Translations under genes and position numbers: made by a program
Shown: in pieces, positions 8,291-16,053 of the stretch
Numbering within the stretch: the first letter of the stretch is position 1
Layout of the letters: each line of letters opens with the position of its first letter
NCBI GenBank assembly: GCA_965248435.1
Contig: OZ252100.1
Location: 4,640,001 to 4,704,000, forward strand
Reading direction: 5' to 3'
DNA length: 64,000 nt
Source of the DNA: Candidatus Latescibacterota bacterium
GTDB lineage: Bacteria; Latescibacterota; UBA2968; GCA-2709665
The notes under the pieces: model-generated
Seen by the model: the letters and a program-made list of their open reading frames with translations, nothing else
Databases searched by the model: none
Told to the model about the DNA's origin: nothing

Positions 8291-9430
8291 ATGGACGAGC
8301 TGAACAGAGGTCTGCTGATCCTCATCGTAGACGACACCCCCAGGAACCTCCAGGTGCTGGGAACTATGCTGAGAAAGGAAGGCTACAGCATTATTCTTGC
8401 TCAAAACGGGCTTCAGGCTCTGGAAGCCACTGAGAAAGCGCCTCCGGACCTGATCCTGCTGGACGTGATGATGCCGGAACTGGACGGGTTCGAGACGTGC
8501 AAACGGCTCAAGGAGAACCCGGCAACCCGGGAGATTCCCGTCATCTTCCTGACGGCGAGAATCGAAACAGAAGACATCGTCAAAGGGTTCGAACTGGGGG
8601 CGGTGGATTACGTGACCAAGCCGTTCAACGCCACGGAACTGCTGGTGAGGGTCGGTTCCCATCTGGCGCGAATCCTGTTGCAGCGGGCGCTTGCGGAGCG
8701 TATGGAGGAGATCGCACGGATGAAAAGGGAGCACGAAGCCTTCCTGCGCCACGAGCTTAAGAACCGAATTACGCCCATTCTAGGCTATTCAGAACAGCTC
8801 TCACAGTTGGGTGGGGACAAGCTGAGCGATTACGAGCAGGAATGGTTGGCCGCCATCTTTGAGGGTGCCAAGAACGTGGTAGGGCTTATCAACGCGATGA
8901 AGCAGTTGCAGGACTTCGAAGCGGGCAAGTTCCAGCTTAATAAACGCCGCATCGGGCTGGGGATGCTTGTCAAACAGGTCATCGCAGACCTGAAGACTGT
9001 GTATGGGAACCTGGTGGAGATCTGCTGCGAGGATAAGCTGACGAATGAATCTGTGGAGGCAGATGAGAACCTTCTGATCGGGGTGTTTCAGAATCTAGTC
9101 AAGAATGGTGTCGAACACATTATGGAACAGGAAGACGACACAGAACGACGGACGGACGTTCGGCTTTACAATGAGAACGGGTATGTCGTCGTGGAGGTCA
9201 ACAACGGCGGGGAACCCATCCCTGCCGAGAGATTGGGGTCGTTCTTTGAGAAGTTCAACACGGATAAGAAAGGGAAACACGGAACGGGGCTTGGGACAAC
9301 GTATGCCTATCTCGTGACCAGGGCCCACGTCGGCGAGATTTCGGTGACATCCAACGAAGCAGACGGCACCACGGTGACGGTAAGACTGCCACAGGCTCGC
9401 GGAGGAGAGGATGCAGGAGGCGCGATATGA
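8291..9430 (+). CDS. Hybrid response regulator/histidine kinase (REC-HisKA-HATPase)
   Basis: REC; H-box FLRHELKNRITPI; NLVKNG; GTGLGT. Confidence 0.9.
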   Translation: MDELNRGLLILIVDDTPRNLQVLGTMLRKEGYSIILAQNGLQALEATEKAPPDLILLDVMMPELDGFETCKRLKENPATREIPVIFLTARIETEDIVKGFELGAVDYVTKPFNATELLVRVGSHLARILLQRALAERMEEIARMKREHEAFLRHELKNRITPILGYSEQLSQLGGDKLSDYEQEWLAAIFEGAKNVVGLINAMKQLQDFEAGKFQLNKRRIGLGMLVKQVIADLKTVYGNLVEICCEDKLTNESVEADENLLIGVFQNLVKNGVEHIMEQEDDTERRTDVRLYNENGYVVVEVNNGGEPIPAERLGSFFEKFNTDKKGKHGTGLGTTYAYLVTRAHVGEISVTSNEADGTTVTVRLPQARGGEDAGGAI

Positions 9431-9519
9431 GGCGGAGCAGCAAAGACAGCGTTTCTTCCGCACGAGTGGGCGATTGATACAAACACTCGGCTTCCATCGC
9501 CAGCGTATCGTAATCGCAT

Positions 9520-9559
9520 AAGCAGGAGGTCACGGGTTCGAGTCCAGTATCGCCCACCA
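9520..9559 (+). tRNA. 3' half of a tRNA-Val-like gene (att-site remnant, not a complete tRNA)
   Basis: AAGCAGGAGGTCACGGGTTCGAGTCCAGTATCGCCCACCA has a T-arm and CCA; D arm and anticodon are missing. Confidence 0.7.
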
Positions 9560-9573
9560 GTCAATGAAATCAT

Positions 9574-9606
9574 GGCAAAGCTCTGTAATTAGGGCTTTGC
9601 CTTTTC
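9574..9606 (+). terminator. Hairpin with U-tract after the tRNA fragment
   Basis: GGCAAAGCTCT-gtaatt-AGGGCTTTGCC-TTTT. Confidence 0.55.
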
Positions 9607-9818
9607 TGTTGCGGGGGAATCAATCTGAAGGAAGCTTTGACTGGACAGACTGTCCTCCCAAAGTTCAGCTCTGGGTCTCCATAAAGTCTCCATCGAAATG
9701 TACAAACCGGTTGTATTGCATTTTCCTTGATTTAATTTCATTAAAGTCATATCCTTTTGGGCATCAGCGAGTTGTGGATAAACTTGTTGCAGCCCAATGA
9801 GTTACATAATCCTTCAGA

Positions 9819-9865
9819 GTGGATTTGTAATCCGTAGGTTGGGGGTTCGAGTCCCCTGGGCGGCT
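9819..9865 (+). tRNA. 3' part of a tRNA-Thr(UGU) gene (att-site remnant or pseudo-tRNA)
   Basis: GTGGA-TTTGTAA-TCCGT anticodon arm, GGGGG-TTCGAGT-CCCCT T arm, GGGCGGCT acceptor strand; no canonical D arm. Confidence 0.7.
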
Positions 9866-9949
9866 TTAAAACACGTGGATCGTGGATCGTCGCTCGTCGT
9901 TCGCAAGCAGAAGTCAGTTCACCGCTTGGACCTTGCCCGGGAGTGGGCT

Positions 9950-10919
9950 CAGACGGTTAAAGCGGATGCCCTTCGCGGCGAGATTCGCGGAAAGAAGAAG
10001 CTGGAGCCCATACCGTTTGGCACATTCGCTGATGAATACCTGAAGGTCTGGGGTCTTAAGCGGAAACCAAGCACTGTTGAACGAGAGAAGACCCGCATTG
10101 ATGGAATCCTAAAACCATATTTTGGACAGAAACCCATTCAAACCATTTCTCGCAAGGACATTGACCTCTATATTGCTAAACGGCTGAGCGGCGAATTTCG
10201 CATACGGCTCTCCGGAGGTATCTCCAAAGCTACCGCGAACAGAGAACTTTGTCGTTTGAAGAACATGCTTCAGAAAGCTGTCGAATGGGGATACCTACCG
10301 AGTAATCCAGCTGAAGGGGTCAAGCAGGAACCAGAGAAAGTTGAGGAAGCTGACTTTCTAAGTAGTAGCCAGCCTGTTGGAGGCCTGTGACGAAAATATT
10401 CAAGCCCTGGTGGTAGCAGCTGTTAATACAGGCATGAGATGGGGAGAGTTAATGGCGCTCGAATGGAGGGATATTGACTTTGAGCGGACGCTGATAACTG
10501 TGCGGGATTCCAAGAACAATGAGACACGTTATGTACGAATGAATACGGCTGTCAGCCAAACCCTGGAATCTCATCAGCGAAATCAGGCACAGAAGGCCGG
10601 CGGCATTGTTCCGATTGTCTTCGCAAACCCGGATACTGGCAAGCCCTATCGGGACATCCGCGGGCCTTTTTACAGAGCTCTGCGCAAGGCTGGAATTGCT
10701 CGACACTTTTCTTTTCACGGTCTTCGGCACACAGCCGCCAGTCATCTAGTCATGGCAGGTGTTGATCTCCGAGCAGTAGGGAAGATCCTTGGGCACAAGA
10801 CCGCACAGATTACCCTTCGATACGCCCATCTTGGTCATGACTATCTGAAGGGGGCAGTTGACAGGCTCGATTTCTCACCCGCAAGATTCGAAGCAAATCG
10901 TGCGGATAAAAGCCTATAA
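9950..10919 (+). pseudogene. Phage/ICE-type tyrosine integrase, N-terminally truncated and frameshifted near 10360
   Basis: SAM-like part (SKATANRELCRLKNMLQKAVEWG) and catalytic part (NTGMRWGEL, FHGLRHTAASHL, LGH, LRYAH) lie in different frames. Confidence 0.85.
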
Positions 10920-11267
10920 AGACTCCAGGGATTTTCGTTCGAAAGAATCAGGGCCTTCACTCTTTTGTGAAGGCCCTACTTGTATGTCCCTCTAAGCGGG
11001 TGGAAAGCATGACCTCATGAATGCCATTTATATTCAGGCTTTTCAGGTTATTTCGTCTAGTTTCATAAGCGTTTGTGCTGTATAGACAAAGGCCGAGGAC
11101 ATTTGTATATTGATTCGTGGTATTTCGGCCGGTTTTGGCTTGGCTTGTTAGAAAATTGTTAGAAAACCCCGTGCTGGTTCTATAGGTAGCATTCACGAAC
11201 AGGTTCAGATTATTTCCCTGTGGGGTGGATTCTGCGAAGTTCGTGATATACCCCGCTTCAGCCAATA

Positions 11268-11300
11268 TTGCGAACTGGTTCGCTAATGCAGTAGTTGAAC
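11268..11300 (+). other. attI-like recombination site
   Basis: Palindrome GCGAAC-TG-GTTCGC, then inverse core CGCTAAT, 6-nt spacer and GTTGAAC core at the start of the first cassette. Confidence 0.5.
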
Positions 11301-11451
11301 TAAACCGCTTCGCGGTGGCCTGCTGCAAGGCCTTTGCTCTTTGACAACCAGGATATGATACCGTGCAAGTCCGGAGCCACTTTGCAAATGGCTCTGTGCT
11401 TTGCATCCTCCTTCTGCTAACAACGTCCACCATCAGCAGAAGGAGAGAGCC

Positions 11452-12303
11452 ATGACCAAGCATCGGAAGCGAATGATCCGGGACATGCAGTTGAAAGGTT
11501 TAGATCCGGATACGCAGAAGGCGTACGTGAGCGGAGTGGCCGGGCTGTGTCGTTACTGCAAGACACCGCCCGACCGGCTCAGCGAAGAAGAGATCCGCGC
11601 CTATCTGCACTATCTGATCACTGAGCGGAAGCTGTCCCAAAGCTATGTCAACCAGGTATACAGCGGGCTGAAGTTTCTGTTCCAAACGACGTTGAAGCGT
11701 GACTGGGTCGAGTGGGGCATCCCTCGTGCGAAGAAGGCAAAGAAGCTCCCGGTGGTACTCTCCACAGAGGAAGTGCAGCGGCTGATCGACAGGACCAACA
11801 ACCTGAAACACCGTACGCTGCTGATGGTCATTTACTCTGGCGGGCTCAGACTGAGTGAGGCCATCGGGCTAAAGCTTTCCGATATCGACAGTGACCGGAT
11901 GCTGATCCGTGTGCGGGGCAAAGGCCAAAAAGAGCGAGAGACGCTTCTGGCCCAGGAGGCCTTAAAGGCACTCCGCGTCTATTGGCGCACCAACCCGTCT
12001 CGCGATTGGCTGTTCCCCGGCGAAAGACCGGACGCGCCGCTCCATGCTCGCACTGTCCAGAAAGTCTTCGAGCAGGCCTGCCGACGCGCGGAGATACAAA
12101 AGCGTGCGAGTGTCCACTCGCTGCGTCACAGCTTCGCCACGCATCTTCTGGACAACGGAGTCGACATCCGCTTCGTCCAACAACTGTTGGGTCACACGAG
12201 CATTCGAACCACCACCGTCTACCTCCACGTCACCACCCGGGACCTCACGCGTATCAGAAGCCCCCTGGACCTTTTGGGAGATGAAGACAAGCCGACTTCG
12301 TAG
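11452..12303 (+). CDS. Site-specific tyrosine recombinase (XerC/D- and IntI-related, intact)
   Basis: GLRLSE, GKGQKER, HSLRHSFATHLL, LLGH, TTVY; no obvious IntI-specific insertion. Confidence 0.95.
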   Translation: MTKHRKRMIRDMQLKGLDPDTQKAYVSGVAGLCRYCKTPPDRLSEEEIRAYLHYLITERKLSQSYVNQVYSGLKFLFQTTLKRDWVEWGIPRAKKAKKLPVVLSTEEVQRLIDRTNNLKHRTLLMVIYSGGLRLSEAIGLKLSDIDSDRMLIRVRGKGQKERETLLAQEALKALRVYWRTNPSRDWLFPGERPDAPLHARTVQKVFEQACRRAEIQKRASVHSLRHSFATHLLDNGVDIRFVQQLLGHTSIRTTTVYLHVTTRDLTRIRSPLDLLGDEDKPTS

Positions 12304-12315
12304 CGGAGGTCGGCC

Positions 12316-13500
12316 ATGTCACAGGCTCTCGAAGTCGCCGACATCTTCCGGGCCCACGGAGACAGCTATCAAGTAGAATACGGTGATCACATGCCGCTTC
12401 GGCAGAAGCGGGCCATGCGGGCTATCCAGATCTGCCGAACAGCTGCGCTGGGCGGACACGTGGAAGTGTGCGGACACTGCGGAGCGAAGCGGATCGCCTA
12501 CAACTCCTGCCGCAACCGGCACTGTACGAAGTGCCAGTTCCTGACGACCGAACGATGGATCGACGCTCGTAAAGAGGATCTCCTTCCGATCCCATACTTC
12601 CACGTCGTCTTCACGTTGCCCGAGCCCCTGCGGCCGCTTGCTCTGCGGAACCAGAAGCTGATCTACAACCTGGTGTTTAAAGCCGCATCGCAGAGTCTTC
12701 TGGAGCTGGCGCGGGAACGGAAGTATCTTGGAGCGCAGATCGGCTTTACCGCCGTGCTTCATACATGGTCTCAGACACTCATCGACCACCCGCATCTGCA
12801 CTGTATCGTAACTGGAGGTGGGCTGACCCACGACGGTCAGGAATGGAAGGCGGCGCGACGGGGCTTCTTTCTACCCGTAAAAGTTCTGTCCCGACTGTTC
12901 CGGGGGAAGTTCCTTGCGTTCCTGAAGGACGCGCACCAGGAAGGCCTTCTGGCGTTCCCGGGATTGAGTGCTCCACTGGAAGATGCGTTCTTCGATCTGC
13001 TTCGGGGTCTTTACCAGAGAGAATGGACCGTTTACGTCAAGCCGACTTTTGCGGATCCAGAACGCGTCGTGGCCTATCTGGGACGATACACACACCGGAT
13101 CGCCATCTCCAACCACCGGCTGGTCGCCTGTGAGGGCGACCGGGTCTCATTCCACTACCGGGACCGCCAGGACGGCAACCGACGGAAGCTGATGACCGTC
13201 GATGCCTACGAGTTCATCCGGCGGTTCCTGCTTCACATCCTGCCGGATGGCTTCGTGAAGATCCGGCACTACGGACTGCTCAGCAATCGGGGTCGCCGGA
13301 AAAAGCTCGCACGATGCCGTAGGCTCCTGGGCACTGTATGCACGACGGCTTCCGCAGCCACAAAGGCGACCTGGCAGGACCTTCTGCTCCGGGTAACAGG
13401 CATCGATCTTCAGGTCTGTGCGCAGTGCGGAGGCCCTATGCTCACAGTCGGAACCCTCGCGCCTCTGCGAGCGCCTCCGGCACATGTTGCCGTAGCTTGA
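12316..13500 (+). CDS. IS91-family rolling-circle (HUH, Y2) transposase with zinc-binding domain
   Basis: CRTAALGGH..C..C..YNSCRNRHCTKC; HUH motif HPHLH; YLGRYTHR; EFIRRFLLHILP-GFVKIRHYG. Confidence 0.95.
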   Translation: MSQALEVADIFRAHGDSYQVEYGDHMPLRQKRAMRAIQICRTAALGGHVEVCGHCGAKRIAYNSCRNRHCTKCQFLTTERWIDARKEDLLPIPYFHVVFTLPEPLRPLALRNQKLIYNLVFKAASQSLLELARERKYLGAQIGFTAVLHTWSQTLIDHPHLHCIVTGGGLTHDGQEWKAARRGFFLPVKVLSRLFRGKFLAFLKDAHQEGLLAFPGLSAPLEDAFFDLLRGLYQREWTVYVKPTFADPERVVAYLGRYTHRIAISNHRLVACEGDRVSFHYRDRQDGNRRKLMTVDAYEFIRRFLLHILPDGFVKIRHYGLLSNRGRRKKLARCRRLLGTVCTTASAATKATWQDLLLRVTGIDLQVCAQCGGPMLTVGTLAPLRAPPAHVAVA

Positions 13501-13705
13501 GCTCCTACACCATCCCTTGCCCGCAAGCCCAACCACCCAACACGGCAGTAGTCTGTCCACTCTTTGAGCTTGGTAGAGCGACTATGGGATCCTGCGACAT
13601 CGGCCCCTCCAAACAGCTTCAAATACGGTCCGATGACTGGGCCAGCCCAGCGGTCCTTACACAAGAATCACTCATCCAATCCCCATAGGCAGGTGAAGCG
13701 GCTTC

Positions 13706-13780
13706 GTTCAACACCGTGTATCCGGAATCCCGCTCCCATCCACGCTTCTCCGACTCCGGATACACGCTTAATCGTTATAC
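13706..13780 (+). repeat. attC-like site 1 (75 bp)
   Basis: GTTCAAC ... CGTGTATCCGGA/TCCGGATACACG stem ... GTTATAC. Confidence 0.75.
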
Positions 13781-13814
13781 GGCATTGGCCGGGGAATGAA
13801 TCCAGTAACCACCA

Positions 13815-14375
13815 ATGGCAGAGCAACCTAACCTAGAAACCGACAGACTTCTCCTTCGTCCATTTGTGGAGAAAGATGCGCCGAGAGTCCACAAACTCGC
13901 GGGCGATCGGGAGATCGCAGCCACCACTCTCAACATCCCACATCCATACGAAGCGGGAGACGCGGAGAAGTGGATCTCAACCCATAGGAAGGCCTTCGAT
14001 TCCGGAAATGAAGTGATCTTCGCGGTAACCCTCAAGTTAGATGGATTGCTCATTGGCGCGATCGGGCTTGTAATCAGCCGACCACATGACAGAGGGGAGA
14101 TGGGATACTGGATCGGCAAGGAATACTGGGGAAGCGGTTACTGCACAGAAGCTGCGAAGGCTGTTTTGCACTACGGTTTTGACGAACTCGGGTTGAACAA
14201 GATTCACGCGAGGCACATGGACACCAATCCGGCCTCTGGGCGAGTCCTAGAGAAGATCGGTATGGGCTACGAGGGGTGTTTGAAGCAACATTACAAGAAG
14301 TGGGATGCCTTCGGTGATTACCACGTTTACGGAATCCTGCGAGACGAATACCAACAGCAAAGAACAAAATCATAG
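13815..14375 (+). CDS. RimJ/RimL-type GNAT N-acetyltransferase, gene cassette
   Basis: LETDRLLLRPF, EMGYWIGKEYWGSGYCTEA, NPASGRVLEKIGM; lies between two attC-like sites. Confidence 0.92.
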   Translation: MAEQPNLETDRLLLRPFVEKDAPRVHKLAGDREIAATTLNIPHPYEAGDAEKWISTHRKAFDSGNEVIFAVTLKLDGLLIGAIGLVISRPHDRGEMGYWIGKEYWGSGYCTEAAKAVLHYGFDELGLNKIHARHMDTNPASGRVLEKIGMGYEGCLKQHYKKWDAFGDYHVYGILRDEYQQQRTKS

Positions 14376-14390
14376 AACCTGGCCAACGCC

Positions 14391-14534
14391 GTATAACACG
14401 CCGGGCTGCGGCTCCGGCGCATTCGCGCCTCCGCCTAACCTGCCTATCGCTGTCACGCCGCTTGCTTTATCAAAACCGTGGGGGGCAAGCGCCGCGCCAG
14501 CTTGGCAGGTTCGCAGCCCGCGAGACCGTTAAGC
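14391..14534 (+). repeat. attC-like site 2 (144 bp)
   Basis: GTATAAC ... CGGGCTGCG/CGCAGCCCG, AACCTGCC/GGCAGGTT and GCTTGC/GCAAGC stems ... GTTAAGC. Confidence 0.8.
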
Positions 14535-14737
14535 GCACATGTTGTTTTTTGTGTAATGGAAACTATAAGGGAGCAAATGCAGCCTCGAACCACACACAAA
14601 TCTGCATATTTCCTGTCTAACTGGACTAAGGGTATTCATTTAGCGTTGAAACCGTGTATGAGCGTGCCCGATTGAGCCTGTCGGATCACCAGTGGATGGA
14701 GCACTTCATTATCGCCTTCAAGTCTGAGTAAGATCCG

Positions 14738-15904
14738 ATGACTATAACACAAGCATCCGTTGAGGCGCTCACGCGTGGCCCAAAGTATCATTGGTTCGGC
14801 TACTACGATAAGTGCCAGTTCGACCCCACTGGCAGATACGTGCTTGGCATGGAAGTCGACTTTGAACACCGGTCGCCCACGACAGACGATGTCATTTCAA
14901 TCGGGATGATCGATCTGCAGGATGGCAATCGCTGGACCGACCTAGGTCATAGCTCGGCTTGGTGCTGGCAACAGGGCTGCATGCTGCAGTGGCTCCCCGG
15001 CTCCGACACACAGATTGTCTGGAACGATCGGCAGGATGATCGCTTTATCTGCCACGTACTCGACATACGTTCCAGTGAGAAGAAGACGATCCCTTCCCCC
15101 ATCTATACCGTTGCCCCCGACGGCACAACCGCCTTCGCCACGGATTTCAGTCGCAATAACGACACGCGGCCCGGTTATGGCTATCCGGGCATCCCCGACC
15201 CCAACGGGGACTGCCTCGCACCGGACAACTCGGGCATCTGGCGAGTGGACCTCGAGAGCGGAAAAAACGAACTGATTCTCACCATCGCCGACGTCGTGGC
15301 ACTCCCCTACCCGCACGGAGACCTGACCAGGGCAAAGCACTGGTTCAACCACCTGCTGGTCAGTCCCGACGCCTCACGCCTCGAGTTCTTGCATCGATGG
15401 CAAGAGGAGGGCACGCCGAGCCGTCGAACCCGAATGCTGACGTGTGCGCCCGACGGAAGTGATGTGCGCGTCGTGGATGACTGCGGCGTGACATCACATT
15501 TTATATGGCACGATGCTGAGCACATTCTGGCGTGGTCCCAGGCACATTCCTCCCGCGGGAATTTCTGTCTGTTCAACGAGCGTACGGGCAGCTACGAGCC
15601 CATTGGCAGTGACCTGATGACGCGGGATGGTCACGTCAATTGCCTGCCGCAAGCCGAGTGGCTCGTGAACGACACCTATCCGAACGAAGACAGAGTGCGA
15701 AGCCTGTACCTATATCACCTACCAAGTGCTCTACGAATTGACATAGGAGGATTCTTTACGCCCCCGGAATACGACGGCAAGTGGCGTTGTGACCTCCATC
15801 CAAGACTGAGTCCCGACGGCTACAAAGTGATCGTTGACTCTGCGCACGGAGGGAATGGCAGGCAGATGTACCTGATGGATATTGGCGATATCATCGCGCA
15901 TTGA
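14738..15904 (+). CDS. TolB-like beta-propeller protein (oligogalacturonate lyase-like)
   Basis: HWFGYYD, AWCWQQG, HWFNH, RCDLHPR motifs. Confidence 0.7.
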   Translation: MTITQASVEALTRGPKYHWFGYYDKCQFDPTGRYVLGMEVDFEHRSPTTDDVISIGMIDLQDGNRWTDLGHSSAWCWQQGCMLQWLPGSDTQIVWNDRQDDRFICHVLDIRSSEKKTIPSPIYTVAPDGTTAFATDFSRNNDTRPGYGYPGIPDPNGDCLAPDNSGIWRVDLESGKNELILTIADVVALPYPHGDLTRAKHWFNHLLVSPDASRLEFLHRWQEEGTPSRRTRMLTCAPDGSDVRVVDDCGVTSHFIWHDAEHILAWSQAHSSRGNFCLFNERTGSYEPIGSDLMTRDGHVNCLPQAEWLVNDTYPNEDRVRSLYLYHLPSALRIDIGGFFTPPEYDGKWRCDLHPRLSPDGYKVIVDSAHGGNGRQMYLMDIGDIIAH

Positions 15905-15926
15905 TCGTGAGCGTGTGGAAGAGGAG

Positions 15927-16053
15927 ATGATGATGGACGTCTATGGCCGACTGGGAGTCAGGAAGACTAATCAATACGTGCGGCTATGCCACGGATCTGG
16001 GTGGCTCGCTCATGTCGCCGGAGGTCCTCGAGGCGATGGCCGAGGCGTCTCGG
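15927..16053 (+). pseudogene. N-terminal fragment of a SelA/DgaE-like PLP enzyme
   Basis: MDVYGRLGVR / LINTCGYATDLGGSLMSPEVLEAMAEASR split by a frameshift, then truncated. Confidence 0.7.

What the first reader, a model, noticed from the sequence alone, without database searches (positions are those of the whole stretch)
11268..14534. Integron-like cassette array without IntI, whose first cassette encodes a tyrosine recombinase plus a rolling-circle HUH transposase
Seen: attI-like site (CGCTAAT-N6-G|TTGAAC), unit 1 (recombinase + IS91-type Y2 transposase), a 75-bp hairpin (GTTCAAC...G|TTATAC), unit 2 (a GNAT gene with only ~35 bp of leader), then a 144-bp hairpin (GTATAAC...G|TTAAGC). Each unit follows the integron cassette rule: the RYYYAAC-like box at its 3' end is the exact reverse complement of the GTTRRRY-like box at its 5' end (GTTGAAC/GTTCAAC; GTTATAC/GTATAAC). 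Known: IntI recombines folded single-stranded attC, and IS91-family HUH enzymes generate ssDNA. Inference: this is a self-carrying cassette system in which the HUH enzyme supplies ssDNA and the partner recombinase inserts the element, and perhaps passenger cassettes, at attI/attC-like sites. The alternative is a selfish element parasitising such arrays.
Basis: partly seen in the sequence, partly recalled or inferred. Interest (0 to 1): 0.92.

Follow-up and report, generated by a model that had tools for sequence, protein, structure and literature searches.

The report
Selfish integron cassette carrying its own recombinase
A 2.5-kb mobile element built like an integron gene cassette, but carrying its own integron-like recombinase and a rolling-circle transposase, sits at the entry site of six cassette arrays in a genome that has no integron integrase.

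Summary
Window 11295-13774 is a 2,480-bp unit (tyrosine recombinase "Rec" plus an IS91-family Y2 transposase). It occurs six times in the genome, always bounded G|TT...G|TT, and always at a conserved ~150-bp attI-like site. Two such sites are empty.

The next unit (GNAT gene, 13775-14528) is a canonical cassette. Its 144-bp attC belongs to a family of about 60 sites in arrays, and 20 of 25 adjacent site pairs obey the cassette rule.

The genome has no IntI. It holds only a truncated remnant of a related integrase that lacks the IntI insertion ("SA-Int"). In relatives, SA-Int sits directly upstream of homologous attI sites and attC arrays. In a tree, Rec is sister to SA-Int and both are sister to IntI.

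One relative has a canonical IntI with the same element at its attI. The gene pair itself is already annotated as the ISAzo26 type of IS91.

Best reading: a cassette-mimicking IS that homes to attI through its own recombinase, with the transposase supplying single-stranded circles. This mechanism is inferred, not shown. Insertion by the transposase alone remains a serious rival. Novelty: new variant of a known kind. Interest 0.8.

The parts
11147..11294 (+). attI-like site of about 150 bp. It holds the palindrome GCGAAC-TG-GTTCGC (11270-11283) and ends TAATGCAGTAG, with the crossover after G 11294.
   Evidence: A profile built from the six upstream flanks finds 6 occupied and 5 further sites in the genome. 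Two of the five are complete and empty. The region does not fold as one hairpin (z -1.2 to -1.8). Homologous regions follow SA-Int genes in relatives.
11295..13774 (+). Cassette-like mobile unit, 2,480 bp from TT to G: Rec, Y2 transposase and its own attC-like end.
   Evidence: Six copies, all exactly 2,480 bp, in two lineages of three (99.7-99.9% within, about 98% between). Public-run contigs break at 11293 and 13777.
11295..11332 (+). 5' end. TTGAACTAAACCGCTTC is complementary to 13695-13711. Two small palindromes follow: ACCGC-TTC-GCGGT and GGCCT..AGGCC.
   Evidence: pair I4; stem 11317-11332. The 5' end is conserved in homologues from other genomes.
11452..12303 (+). Rec, a 283-aa tyrosine recombinase related to IntI and Xer, lacking the IntI-specific insertion.
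   Evidence: Pfam PF13495 + PF00589. NCBIfam scores against cut-offs: XerA 219/220, IntI 195.5/265, XerC 189, XerD 184. The insertion is absent and the R, K, HxxR, H, Y positions align. Sister to SA-Int, and both sister to IntI. Closest solved structure by sequence is VchIntIA, 2a3v.
12316..13500 (+). IS91-family Y2 (HUH) transposase, 394 aa, with an N-terminal zinc-binding domain.
   Evidence: Pfam PF14319 + PF04986. NCBIfam transpos_IS91 scores 452.7 bits against a cut-off of 125. All six genomic copies have open frames without stops.
13678..13689 (+). Conserved motif AATCCCCATAGG just before the 3' inverted repeat. Candidate cis site for the transposase (inference).
   Evidence: The motif CCCCATAG is present in homologues from Planctomycetota, Eremiobacterota, Acidobacteriota and Aromatoleum. 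Clostridium has CTCCATAG and Sinorhizobium AATCCATAG.
13695..13780 (+). attC-like end. Extended R'' is GAAGCGGCTTCGTTCAAC (13695-13712). Stem arms lie at 13715-13729 and 13752-13766, the spacer CTTAATC at 13767-13773, and R' G|TTATAC at 13774-13780.
   Evidence: The joined circle form folds as outer stem, asymmetric internal loop and inner stem. The bottom strand gives -28.9 kcal/mol (z -6.4) and the top -23.6. The spacing resembles the genome's canonical attCs, AAC-ACG... and ...(C)GAGAAC-GTT.
13775..14528 (+). Canonical gene cassette encoding a GNAT acetyltransferase (ORF 13815-14375).
   Evidence: Pfam PF13302, E 8.4e-38. A 97% identical copy lies in another array, C1 1442588-1443351. Its start GTTATACGGC is the exact complement of its R''.
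14391..14534 (+). Canonical attC (R'' GTATAAC ... R' G|TTAAGC), a member of a genome-wide family.
   Evidence: The bottom strand folds at -48.4 kcal/mol, z -4.29, with 0 of 200 shuffles as good. The family profile places 60 of 60 5' ends with AAC in register and 33 of 35 3' ends with GTT.
9797..10919 (+). Context only: a broken phage-type integrase in two frames (9797-10390 and 10377-10919). It is not of the IntI/Rec kind.
   Evidence: Pfam PF14659 and PF00589. It scores 33-40 bits against the IntI profile. Its downstream stretch 10904-11260 is 95% identical to the DNA beside an intact 370-aa paralogue at C1 4625151-4625493.

Best explanation
Window 11295-13774 is an insertion-sequence-like element organised as an integron-type gene cassette. 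It carries its own integron-related tyrosine recombinase (Rec), an IS91-family rolling-circle transposase (Y2), and a 3' end that completes an attC-like folded site with the 5' end once the element is circular.

Shown:
- The element homes to the G|TT crossover of attI-type sites that head attC cassette arrays.
- In this lineage such arrays normally sit behind an integrase that lacks the IntI insertion (SA-Int).

Inferred:
- The Y2 enzyme copies the element out as a single-stranded circle.
- The circle junction folds.
- Rec recombines the folded junction with double-stranded attI, as IntI does with attC x attI.
- Replication then fixes the new copy, so the element multiplies rather than merely moves.

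Possible but untested: Rec also acts in trans on the host's ordinary cassettes.
For: 1. Six copies, each 2,480 bp, with both ORFs open, in two lineages of three at 99.7-99.9% identity.
2. All six lie at the same point of a conserved ~150-bp site, and two complete sites are empty. One empty site continues with the same cassette start that follows copy A.
3. None of the six lies at any of the roughly 60 attC sites, which offer the same hairpin-spacer-GTT geometry. A preference for attI is what integron-type integration gives.
4. Five of six copies are followed by a cassette whose R'' complements its start at 9 or more of 10 bases. The arrays obey the cassette rule in 20 of 25 adjacent pairs.
5. 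The genome has no IntI over the cut-off (0 of 23 matches). Its only SA-Int is an 83-residue C-terminal piece. The six Rec genes are therefore the only intact members of the IntI/SA-Int/Rec group.
6. Tree: the Rec clade (99/99) is sister to SA-Int (93/79). Together (92/81) they are sister to IntI (100/99). All are split from 3 Xer rows by 100/100.
7. SA-Int genes in relatives are followed after 121-268 bp by G|TT. In 5 of 8 loci a first cassette follows whose attC R'' complements that start.
8. The circle junction folds like the reconstituted GNAT attC, with the bottom strand more stable.
9. The stem sequence TGTATNCGGAA and the 5' end TTGAACNAAACCGC are conserved between homologues with about 40-60% protein identity. 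This suggests recognition by the element's own proteins.
10. IS91 makes single-stranded circles and inserts the bottom-strand circle (PMC13181058, Introduction read).
Against: - No circle, excision product or new insertion was observed. The public runs are held only as contigs.
- In relative G002 the homologous element sits at the attI of a canonical IntI (465 bits). A host integrase could therefore do the insertion.
- The junction pattern, a short core at the left flank repeated at the element's right end, is also the classical IS91 pattern: a target tetranucleotide plus the same tetranucleotide at terIS (PMC13181058).
- Related elements have cores GATT (Sinorhizobium plasmid, 3 copies) and CGAA (two Pirellulales MAG copies), with no integron setting apparent in their immediate flanks. 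GTT is thus not a family constant.
- The element's hairpin has no clear extrahelical bases.
- The 3-base ambiguity at both junctions cannot separate G|TT from GTT|.
- SA-Int may have been lost only recently.
Confidence: 0.55

Rival explanations
1. Transposase-only mechanism. The element is an ordinary IS91-family IS of the ISAzo26 type. Its Y2 enzyme nicks after GTT at a left origin end and after GTT beside the right subterminal palindrome, then inserts a single-stranded circle next to GTT in the target. Rec is an accessory, for example a regulator, a resolvase or a termination factor, much as Orf121 is for IS91.
For: - The core appears at the left flank and at the right end in all three subfamilies examined: GTT here, GATT and CGAA. 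This matches the IS91 rule of a target tetranucleotide plus the same tetranucleotide at terIS, without target duplication (PMC13181058, Introduction).
- The right end has a single subterminal palindrome next to the junction, and the left end has two small palindromes. That paper describes terIS and oriIS this way.
- The transposase scores 453 bits against the IS91 model.
- The motif AATCCCCATAG is conserved.
Against: - A three- or four-base target cannot explain six of six insertions into one ~150-bp site family.
- It also cannot explain the avoidance of about 60 attC sites with the same hairpin-spacer-GTT geometry.
- Rec is intact in all six copies and in homologues across phyla.
- Rec belongs to the sister group of IntI and of the attI-linked SA-Int.
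Confidence: 0.22
2. Host-integrase mechanism. The unit is a passive integron cassette that happens to carry an IS-derived gene pair. It is excised and inserted by the resident integrase (SA-Int or IntI). Its six copies in this genome date from before SA-Int was lost.
For: - The element sits at the attI of a canonical IntI in G002, and a remnant of it sits at an SA-Int attI there.
- It obeys the cassette rule like ordinary cassettes.
- A truncated SA-Int remains in this genome.
- IntI recognises attC by structure, so a foreign hairpin could serve.
Against: - Conservative cassette movement does not by itself give six copies in two recently expanded lineages.
- No intact IntI or SA-Int is present.
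- Relatives of the element occur on 458 of 72,556 plasmid records and in phyla where no integron context was seen. The pair is therefore mobile on its own.
- The stem and end sequences are conserved, unlike ordinary attCs.
Confidence: 0.15
3. Chance resemblance: the boxes and hairpins are coincidental and there is no cassette system.
For: Short boxes such as GTTRRRY are common.
Against: Exact 2,480-bp copies, empty sites, 18-20-nt complementarities, and 20 of 25 rule-obeying pairs against 10% in controls.
Confidence: 0.01

Closest known systems
ISAzo26-type members of the IS91 family (tyrosine recombinase gene directly upstream of the Y2 transposase gene)
   Same: - Same gene pair and order. 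RefSeq annotates 'tyrosine-type recombinase/integrase' followed by 'IS91-like element ISAzo26 family transposase' on Aromatoleum aromaticum EbN1 plasmid 2. Its recombinase is 47.5% identical to Rec.
- Same end architecture: 5' G TTGGACTAAACCGC, a complementary 3' box ending GTCCAAC, and then a hairpin.
   Different: - The window's subfamily has GTT as its core and sits at integron attI sites.
- A Sinorhizobium plasmid relative has core GATT, with no integron setting apparent in the flanks shown.
- No paper describing the mechanism or target of this group was found. That ISfinder lists such elements is my recollection, not a tool result.
Integron gene cassettes and attC x attI recombination by IntI
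   Same: - G|TT boundaries.
- The start of the unit is complementary to the R'' box of its own 3' site.
- First position after attI.
- Two-stem folded site with the bottom strand more stable.
- The neighbouring GNAT cassette and about 60 attCs are canonical.
   Different: - The unit encodes its own recombinase and a transposase, is 2.5 kb long, and is multi-copy.
- Its hairpin lacks evident extrahelical bases.
- Rec lacks the IntI-specific insertion that the integron papers call essential (PMC9024848 and PMC8138268, passages read).
CALINs (clusters of attC sites lacking an integron integrase; Cury et al. 2016, PMC4889954, passages read)
   Same: The genome's arrays would be scored as CALINs: attC clusters with no protein matching the IntI-specific profile.
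   Different: - Here the arrays keep a recognisable attI.
- In relatives, an adjacent co-oriented integrase of a sister family is present.
- Cury et al. report 50 non-IntI recombinases near attC sites, of which 21 were scattered in the tyrosine-recombinase tree. Their supplementary figure could not be opened, so I cannot tell whether SA-Int is among them.
IS1111-attC group (IS110 family) and group IIC-attC introns: mobile elements that target attC sites (recalled; group II introns also in PMC7923331, abstract)
   Same: A selfish element specialised on integron recombination sites. An IS110-family element lies right after attC R' boxes in three of this genome's arrays.
   Different: Those elements insert inside attC by other chemistries and do not mimic a cassette. 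This one occupies a cassette slot at attI and has an attC-like end of its own.

Membership tests
Integron integrase IntI | Scores above the curated cut-off of the IntI profile (TIGR02249, 265 bits) | tested here: not met
   Rec scores 195.5 bits in two stretches, profile positions 7-176 and 237-314. A true IntI from relative G002 scores 465.
Integron integrase IntI | IntI-specific insertion in the catalytic domain | tested here: not met
   In the alignment with four IntIs, about 41 columns are empty in Rec and in SA-Int.
Integron integrase IntI | Tyrosine-recombinase catalytic residues (R, K, HxxR, H/W, Y) | tested here: met
   All positions align with those of IntI and Xer. PF00589 E 3.8e-45.
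Integron integrase IntI | Falls within the IntI clade | tested here: not met
   The IntI clade (100/99) excludes Rec. Rec plus SA-Int form the sister group (92/81) (45 rows used, 2 truncated rows dropped before building).
Integron gene cassette | Bounded by G|TT crossovers, with the 5' TTxxxx complementary to the R'' box of its own 3' site | tested here: met
   GTTGAAC / GTTCAAC, extended to 18 nt at 89%. Six copies plus empty sites fix the boundaries to within 3 bases.
Integron gene cassette | Inserted at attI or between attC sites of an array | tested here: met
   Six of six copies lie at attI-like sites, and five of six are followed by a rule-obeying cassette. In G002, copies lie at an IntI attI, and one lies after a hairpin-like site.
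Canonical attC site | R''/R' and L''/L' pairing with an unpaired central spacer, bottom strand folding better | tested here: met
   The circle junction folds as outer stem, internal loop and 15-bp inner stem. Bottom strand -28.9, top -23.6 kcal/mol.
Canonical attC site | Extrahelical bases in the L box | tested here: inconclusive
   The inner stem is nearly perfect, with only a 1x1 mismatch at its base. The genome's ordinary attCs show a bulged base after ACG.
Canonical attC site | Recombined by an integrase as folded single-stranded DNA | not testable with these tools
   Needs a recombination assay.
IS91 family | Y2 HUH transposase with N-terminal zinc-binding domain | tested here: met
   PF04986 + PF14319. 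NF033538 scores 452.7 bits against a cut-off of 125.
IS91 family | No target duplication; a short target sequence at one end is repeated at the other end of the IS | tested here: met
   Only GTT is shared by the left flank and the right end, and empty sites hold one GTT. Relatives show GATT and CGAA. The rule is taken from PMC13181058 (Introduction read).
IS91 family | Low target specificity (tetranucleotide only) | tested here: not met
   All six copies lie in one ~150-bp site family.
IS91 family | Single-stranded circular intermediate | not testable with these tools
   Only contigs of public runs were available.

The most novel reading that the evidence does not exclude
The cassette-borne Rec is the working integrase of this genome's roughly 60-cassette arrays. 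That would make this an integron whose integrase is itself a mobile, self-replicating cassette.

More broadly, recombinases that lack the IntI insertion (Rec and SA-Int) would carry out attI x attC recombination on folded single strands. If so, the IntI insertion is not required for integron function, and many 'integrase-less' attC clusters (CALINs) are in fact serviced.
Probability: 0.25. Interest if true: 0.92.

Novelty: new variant of a known kind. Interest (0 to 1): 0.8.

Why it matters
Integron biology holds that only IntI, through its special insertion, can recombine folded attC sites. It also holds that attC clusters without IntI are orphaned. Two things here challenge that view:
- an IS that copies the cassette format and brings its own IntI-related recombinase;
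- a sister integrase family that sits where intI should be, in front of attI and canonical attC arrays.

If either enzyme works on these sites, several consequences follow:
- The requirement for the IntI insertion would need revising.
- It would give a source of activity for CALINs.
- It would link rolling-circle transposition, which produces single-stranded DNA, to single-strand site-specific recombination.
- It would give the widespread but unstudied ISAzo26-type elements a mechanism. Relatives of Rec occur on 458 of 72,556 plasmid records.

All of this can be tested directly with existing integron and IS91 assays.

Tried and rejected
- **tRNA scan of the window.** None found, so no tRNA-linked island boundary could be named.
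- **Rfam scan of 9000-16000.** Only one sub-threshold snoRNA-like hit, treated as chance.
- **Promoter and terminator scan.** Two promoter-like sites against 1.9 expected. This says nothing about a cassette promoter.
- **attI-like site as a second class of attC.** Rejected. It does not fold end to end (z -1.2 to -1.8), and SA-Int is not itself inside a cassette (0 convincing matches in 8 loci, plus two 9-of-10 matches about 1 kb upstream taken as chance).
- **Genome's attC and attI profiles against relatives' loci.** No hits in L009-L087. The attI profile found nothing in the SA-Int loci. The homology of those regions is therefore by eye and by the junction test.
- **Recent cassette movement as evidence for trans-activity of Rec.** The two longest high-identity duplicates between arrays (99.2% and 99.4%) turned out to be IS110- and IS30-family elements. 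Two shorter duplicates within arrays (99.7-99.8%) and the GNAT cassette (97%) are weak evidence either way.
- **Public runs.** No RNA holder is listed, and all four runs laid are contigs. No circle and no empty form of this locus were seen, so this says nothing either way.
- **An unplaced joint in two of those runs.** It links the element's right end directly to the TAACACG start of an attC like the one after copy E. It is absent from the assembly and unexplained.
- **Literature searches.** They returned no paper describing a recombinase+IS91 unit at attI, or attC arrays behind an integrase that lacks the IntI insertion. 'ISAzo26' occurs in no held paper.

Full report
**What is in the window.**
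- ORF 11452-12303 is a tyrosine recombinase, here called Rec (PF13495 + PF00589).
- ORF 12316-13500 is a Y2 transposase with the IS91 zinc-binding domain.
- ORF 13815-14375 is a GNAT acetyltransferase.

Three inverted-repeat pairs stand out:
- 11294-11311 with 13695-13712 (18 nt, 89%);
- 13715-13729 with 13752-13766 (15 nt, 93%);
- 13774-13793 with 14378-14397 (20 nt, 90%).

The 144-bp site folds best as the bottom strand (-48.4 kcal/mol, z -4.29).

**The unit is a six-copy element with exact ends.** The window lies at C1 4640001-4704000 of a genome of 5.67 Mb in two contigs. BLAST of 10900-14700 against that genome finds five more copies. Aligning copies with their flanks shows identity starting at (A)G TTGAAC and ending at AATCG TTA. 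Measured from TT to G, all six copies are exactly 2,480 bp. They fall into two lineages of three: 99.68-99.92% identity within a lineage and 97.8-98.1% between them. All six Rec frames and all six Y2 frames are open. Contigs of public runs break at 11293 and 13777, as expected for a repeat with these ends.

**All copies sit in one kind of site, and empty sites exist.** The 150 bp upstream of each copy are similar but diverged. A profile built from them finds the six occupied sites and five others. Two of the five are complete and unoccupied:
- ...GCGAATGCAGAAG|TTAACAG at C1 4954226 (minus strand);
- ...GAATGCCGTAG|TTAAGTGCAATGCCGGTGCC at C1 5004370.

The second continues with nearly the same bases that follow copy A. 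The element has therefore been inserted at G|TT. A three-base ambiguity remains, because G precedes and TT follows both junctions. The site does not fold as one hairpin. It holds the palindrome GCGAAC-TG-GTTCGC a few bases before the crossover.

**The surrounding arrays are true integron-type arrays.** An iterated profile from the 144-bp site gives 86 hit rows, in clusters spaced 0.5-2 kb apart at seven regions of the chromosome. All 60 of 60 5' ends have AAC in register, and 33 of 35 3' ends have GTT. Sites read R''-ACG-stem ... stem-(C)GAGAAC-GTTRRRY. For 25 adjacent R'-to-R'' pairs, 20 match at 6 or more of 7 bases beyond GTT, against 10% of random pairings. The five failures have long spacings. 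After the element, a cassette with a matching R'' and a canonical attC follows in five of six copies and at one of the two empty sites. The GNAT cassette recurs at 97% identity in another array.

**The element's own 3' end is attC-like.** It reads GTTCAAC, two bases, a 15-bp stem with a 22-nt loop, seven bases, then G|TT. This spacing is close to that of the ordinary attCs. When the circle junction is built in a script, it folds as outer stem, asymmetric internal loop and inner stem. The bottom strand gives -28.9 kcal/mol (z -6.4) and the top -23.6. The reconstituted GNAT attC behaves the same way (-66.3 and -55.2). It shows no clear extrahelical base.

**No IntI here, but a sister integrase in relatives.** None of 23 matches to the IntI profile in this genome reaches the cut-off. 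The best matches are the Rec copies, split around the IntI-specific region. Rec scores 219 against the XerA model (cut-off 220), 195.5 against IntI (cut-off 265), 189 against XerC and 184 against XerD. Its closest solved structure by sequence is VchIntIA.

Among 53 genomes of the same order, two have an IntI over the cut-off. Among 151 genomes of the phylum, 15 do.

In relative G002 a 465-bit IntI is followed, in the same orientation, by about 190 bp and then TAATAG|TTGAACAAAACCGC. This is a homologue of the element: Rec 55% and Y2 61% identical, with its own GTTCAAC-hairpin-G|TTATCT end. A VapBC-like cassette follows. G002 has three identical copies with three different right flanks. One of them lies after a hairpin-like site rather than an attI.

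Thirteen other Rec relatives in the order have no Y2 beside them. Seven of those thirteen loci (L109, L110, L111, L113, L115, L117, L118) are SA-Int genes or remnants followed, after 121-268 bp resembling this genome's attI-like site, by G|TTA. Full-length ones are about 330-400 aa and carry an N-terminal extension. In an eighth locus (L116) the G|TT is followed by a remnant of the element. In 5 of these 8 loci the first cassette ends in an attC whose R'' complements its start. The genome's attC profile hits downstream in three of them.

The piece upstream of the empty site at 4954226 is 70% identical to residues 288-370 of SA-Int. The native integrase of this array type is therefore truncated here.

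**Tree and alignment.** The tree has 45 rows; two truncated rows were dropped. IntI forms a clade (100/99). The Rec clade (99/99) is sister to SA-Int (93/79). Together (92/81) they are sister to IntI. All are separated from three Xer rows by 100/100. The root is at the midpoint only. Rec and SA-Int lack the roughly 41-column IntI insertion and keep the catalytic residues.

**What is already known.** The gene pair is annotated in RefSeq as a recombinase followed by an 'IS91-like element ISAzo26 family transposase'. Relatives of Rec occur on 458 of 72,556 plasmid records. In the protein collection, 7,312 of the 8,000 candidates scored reach E <= 1e-20, and most of the 120 listed lie on 1-5-kb contigs. 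The ISAzo26 copy has the same end design. Three copies on a Sinorhizobium plasmid share GATT at the left flank and at the right end. Two Pirellulales MAG copies share CGAA.

This 'core at both junctions' pattern is also the classical IS91 rule. IS91 is reported to insert a bottom-strand single-stranded circle (PMC13181058; passages and Introduction read). Integron papers state that the IntI insertion is what allows recombination of folded single strands (PMC9024848, PMC8138268; passages read). Cury et al. found only scattered non-IntI recombinases near attC sites (PMC4889954; passages read).

**Weighing the explanations.**
- Structure, copy number, target and phylogeny are shown.
- Which enzyme makes the joints is inferred.
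- Rec is favoured for four reasons: the target is a long specific site and not a tetranucleotide; attC sites with the same local geometry are avoided; no other integrase of this group is intact in the genome; and Rec is the sister of the integrases that sit at such sites.
- The IS91-only reading and the host-integrase reading remain open. Each has a clear test.

**Verdict.** The feature is a new variant of known kinds: an ISAzo26-type IS91 element in the format of an integron cassette, targeting attI. As a by-product, the work shows arrays headed by an integrase that lacks the IntI insertion.

Noticed in passing
G000 C1 2066278-2067551, 1444276-1445549, 3860663-3861922 (locus L132): An IS110-family transposase element (363-aa ORF) lies directly after attC R' boxes (GTTAGATACTCTC...) in three arrays, at 98-99.2% identity. 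It resembles the attC-targeting IS1111-attC group; that group name is recalled, not from a tool.
   Followed up: partly
G000 C1 951662-952716 and 2073846-2074894 (locus L133): An IS30-family-like transposase element (327-aa ORF, family judged by eye) is duplicated at 99.4% between two cassette arrays. One copy lies just upstream of the attI-like site of copy E.
   Followed up: partly
window 9797-10919 and 10904-11260: A phage-type integrase broken into two frames lies upstream of the attI-like site. The 357 bp downstream of it recur at 95% identity beside an intact 370-aa paralogue (C1 4624447-4625493), where the attI-like site is cut short. tRNA-like reading-frame remnants lie further upstream, but ARAGORN finds no tRNA.
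   Followed up: partly
window 13777 joined to 14394 (runs X1, X2): Contigs of two runs join the element's right end directly to the TAACACG start of an attC whose loop matches the attC after copy E. Depth is about one third to two thirds of single copy. The joint is absent from the assembly. It may be a strain variant or a cassette-less form.
   Followed up: partly
loci L111, L114, L116, L117 and proteins P0121-P0240: SA-Int proteins carry a conserved N-terminal extension of about 100 aa (motif like PG..GR.LV.F.Y.P..V..IK.IPGR.W.P..K.W.VP). They are widespread in Chloroflexota, Bacillota, Gemmatimonadota and others. NCBI names some of them 'site-specific tyrosine recombinase/integron integrase'. 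Whether those are also linked to attC arrays was not examined.
   Followed up: no
loci L110, L111, L115, L117 just after the attI G|TT: The first 60-80 bases after attI share a motif (CCCAACCACCCCACCC ... GCGCACAAAAA) in several relatives. It could be a conserved leader or a first mini-cassette.
   Followed up: no
locus L092 13231 onward (G002): The cassette after the element in the canonical integron of G002 encodes a VapB/VapC-like antitoxin-toxin pair (judged by eye). Such pairs are usual in chromosomal integrons.
   Followed up: no
locus L116 9458 onward and L108 (G002): At one SA-Int attI, only the 5' leader of an element homologue remains, interrupted by an IS3-like insertion. A second homologue, with Rec 52% identical, is cut by the same IS.
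   Followed up: partly
locus L112 (G001, same genus): A Rec/SA-Int-like gene (47% identical to Rec) lies among attC sites of the opposite orientation. It may be an integrase gene caught inside an array.
   Followed up: no
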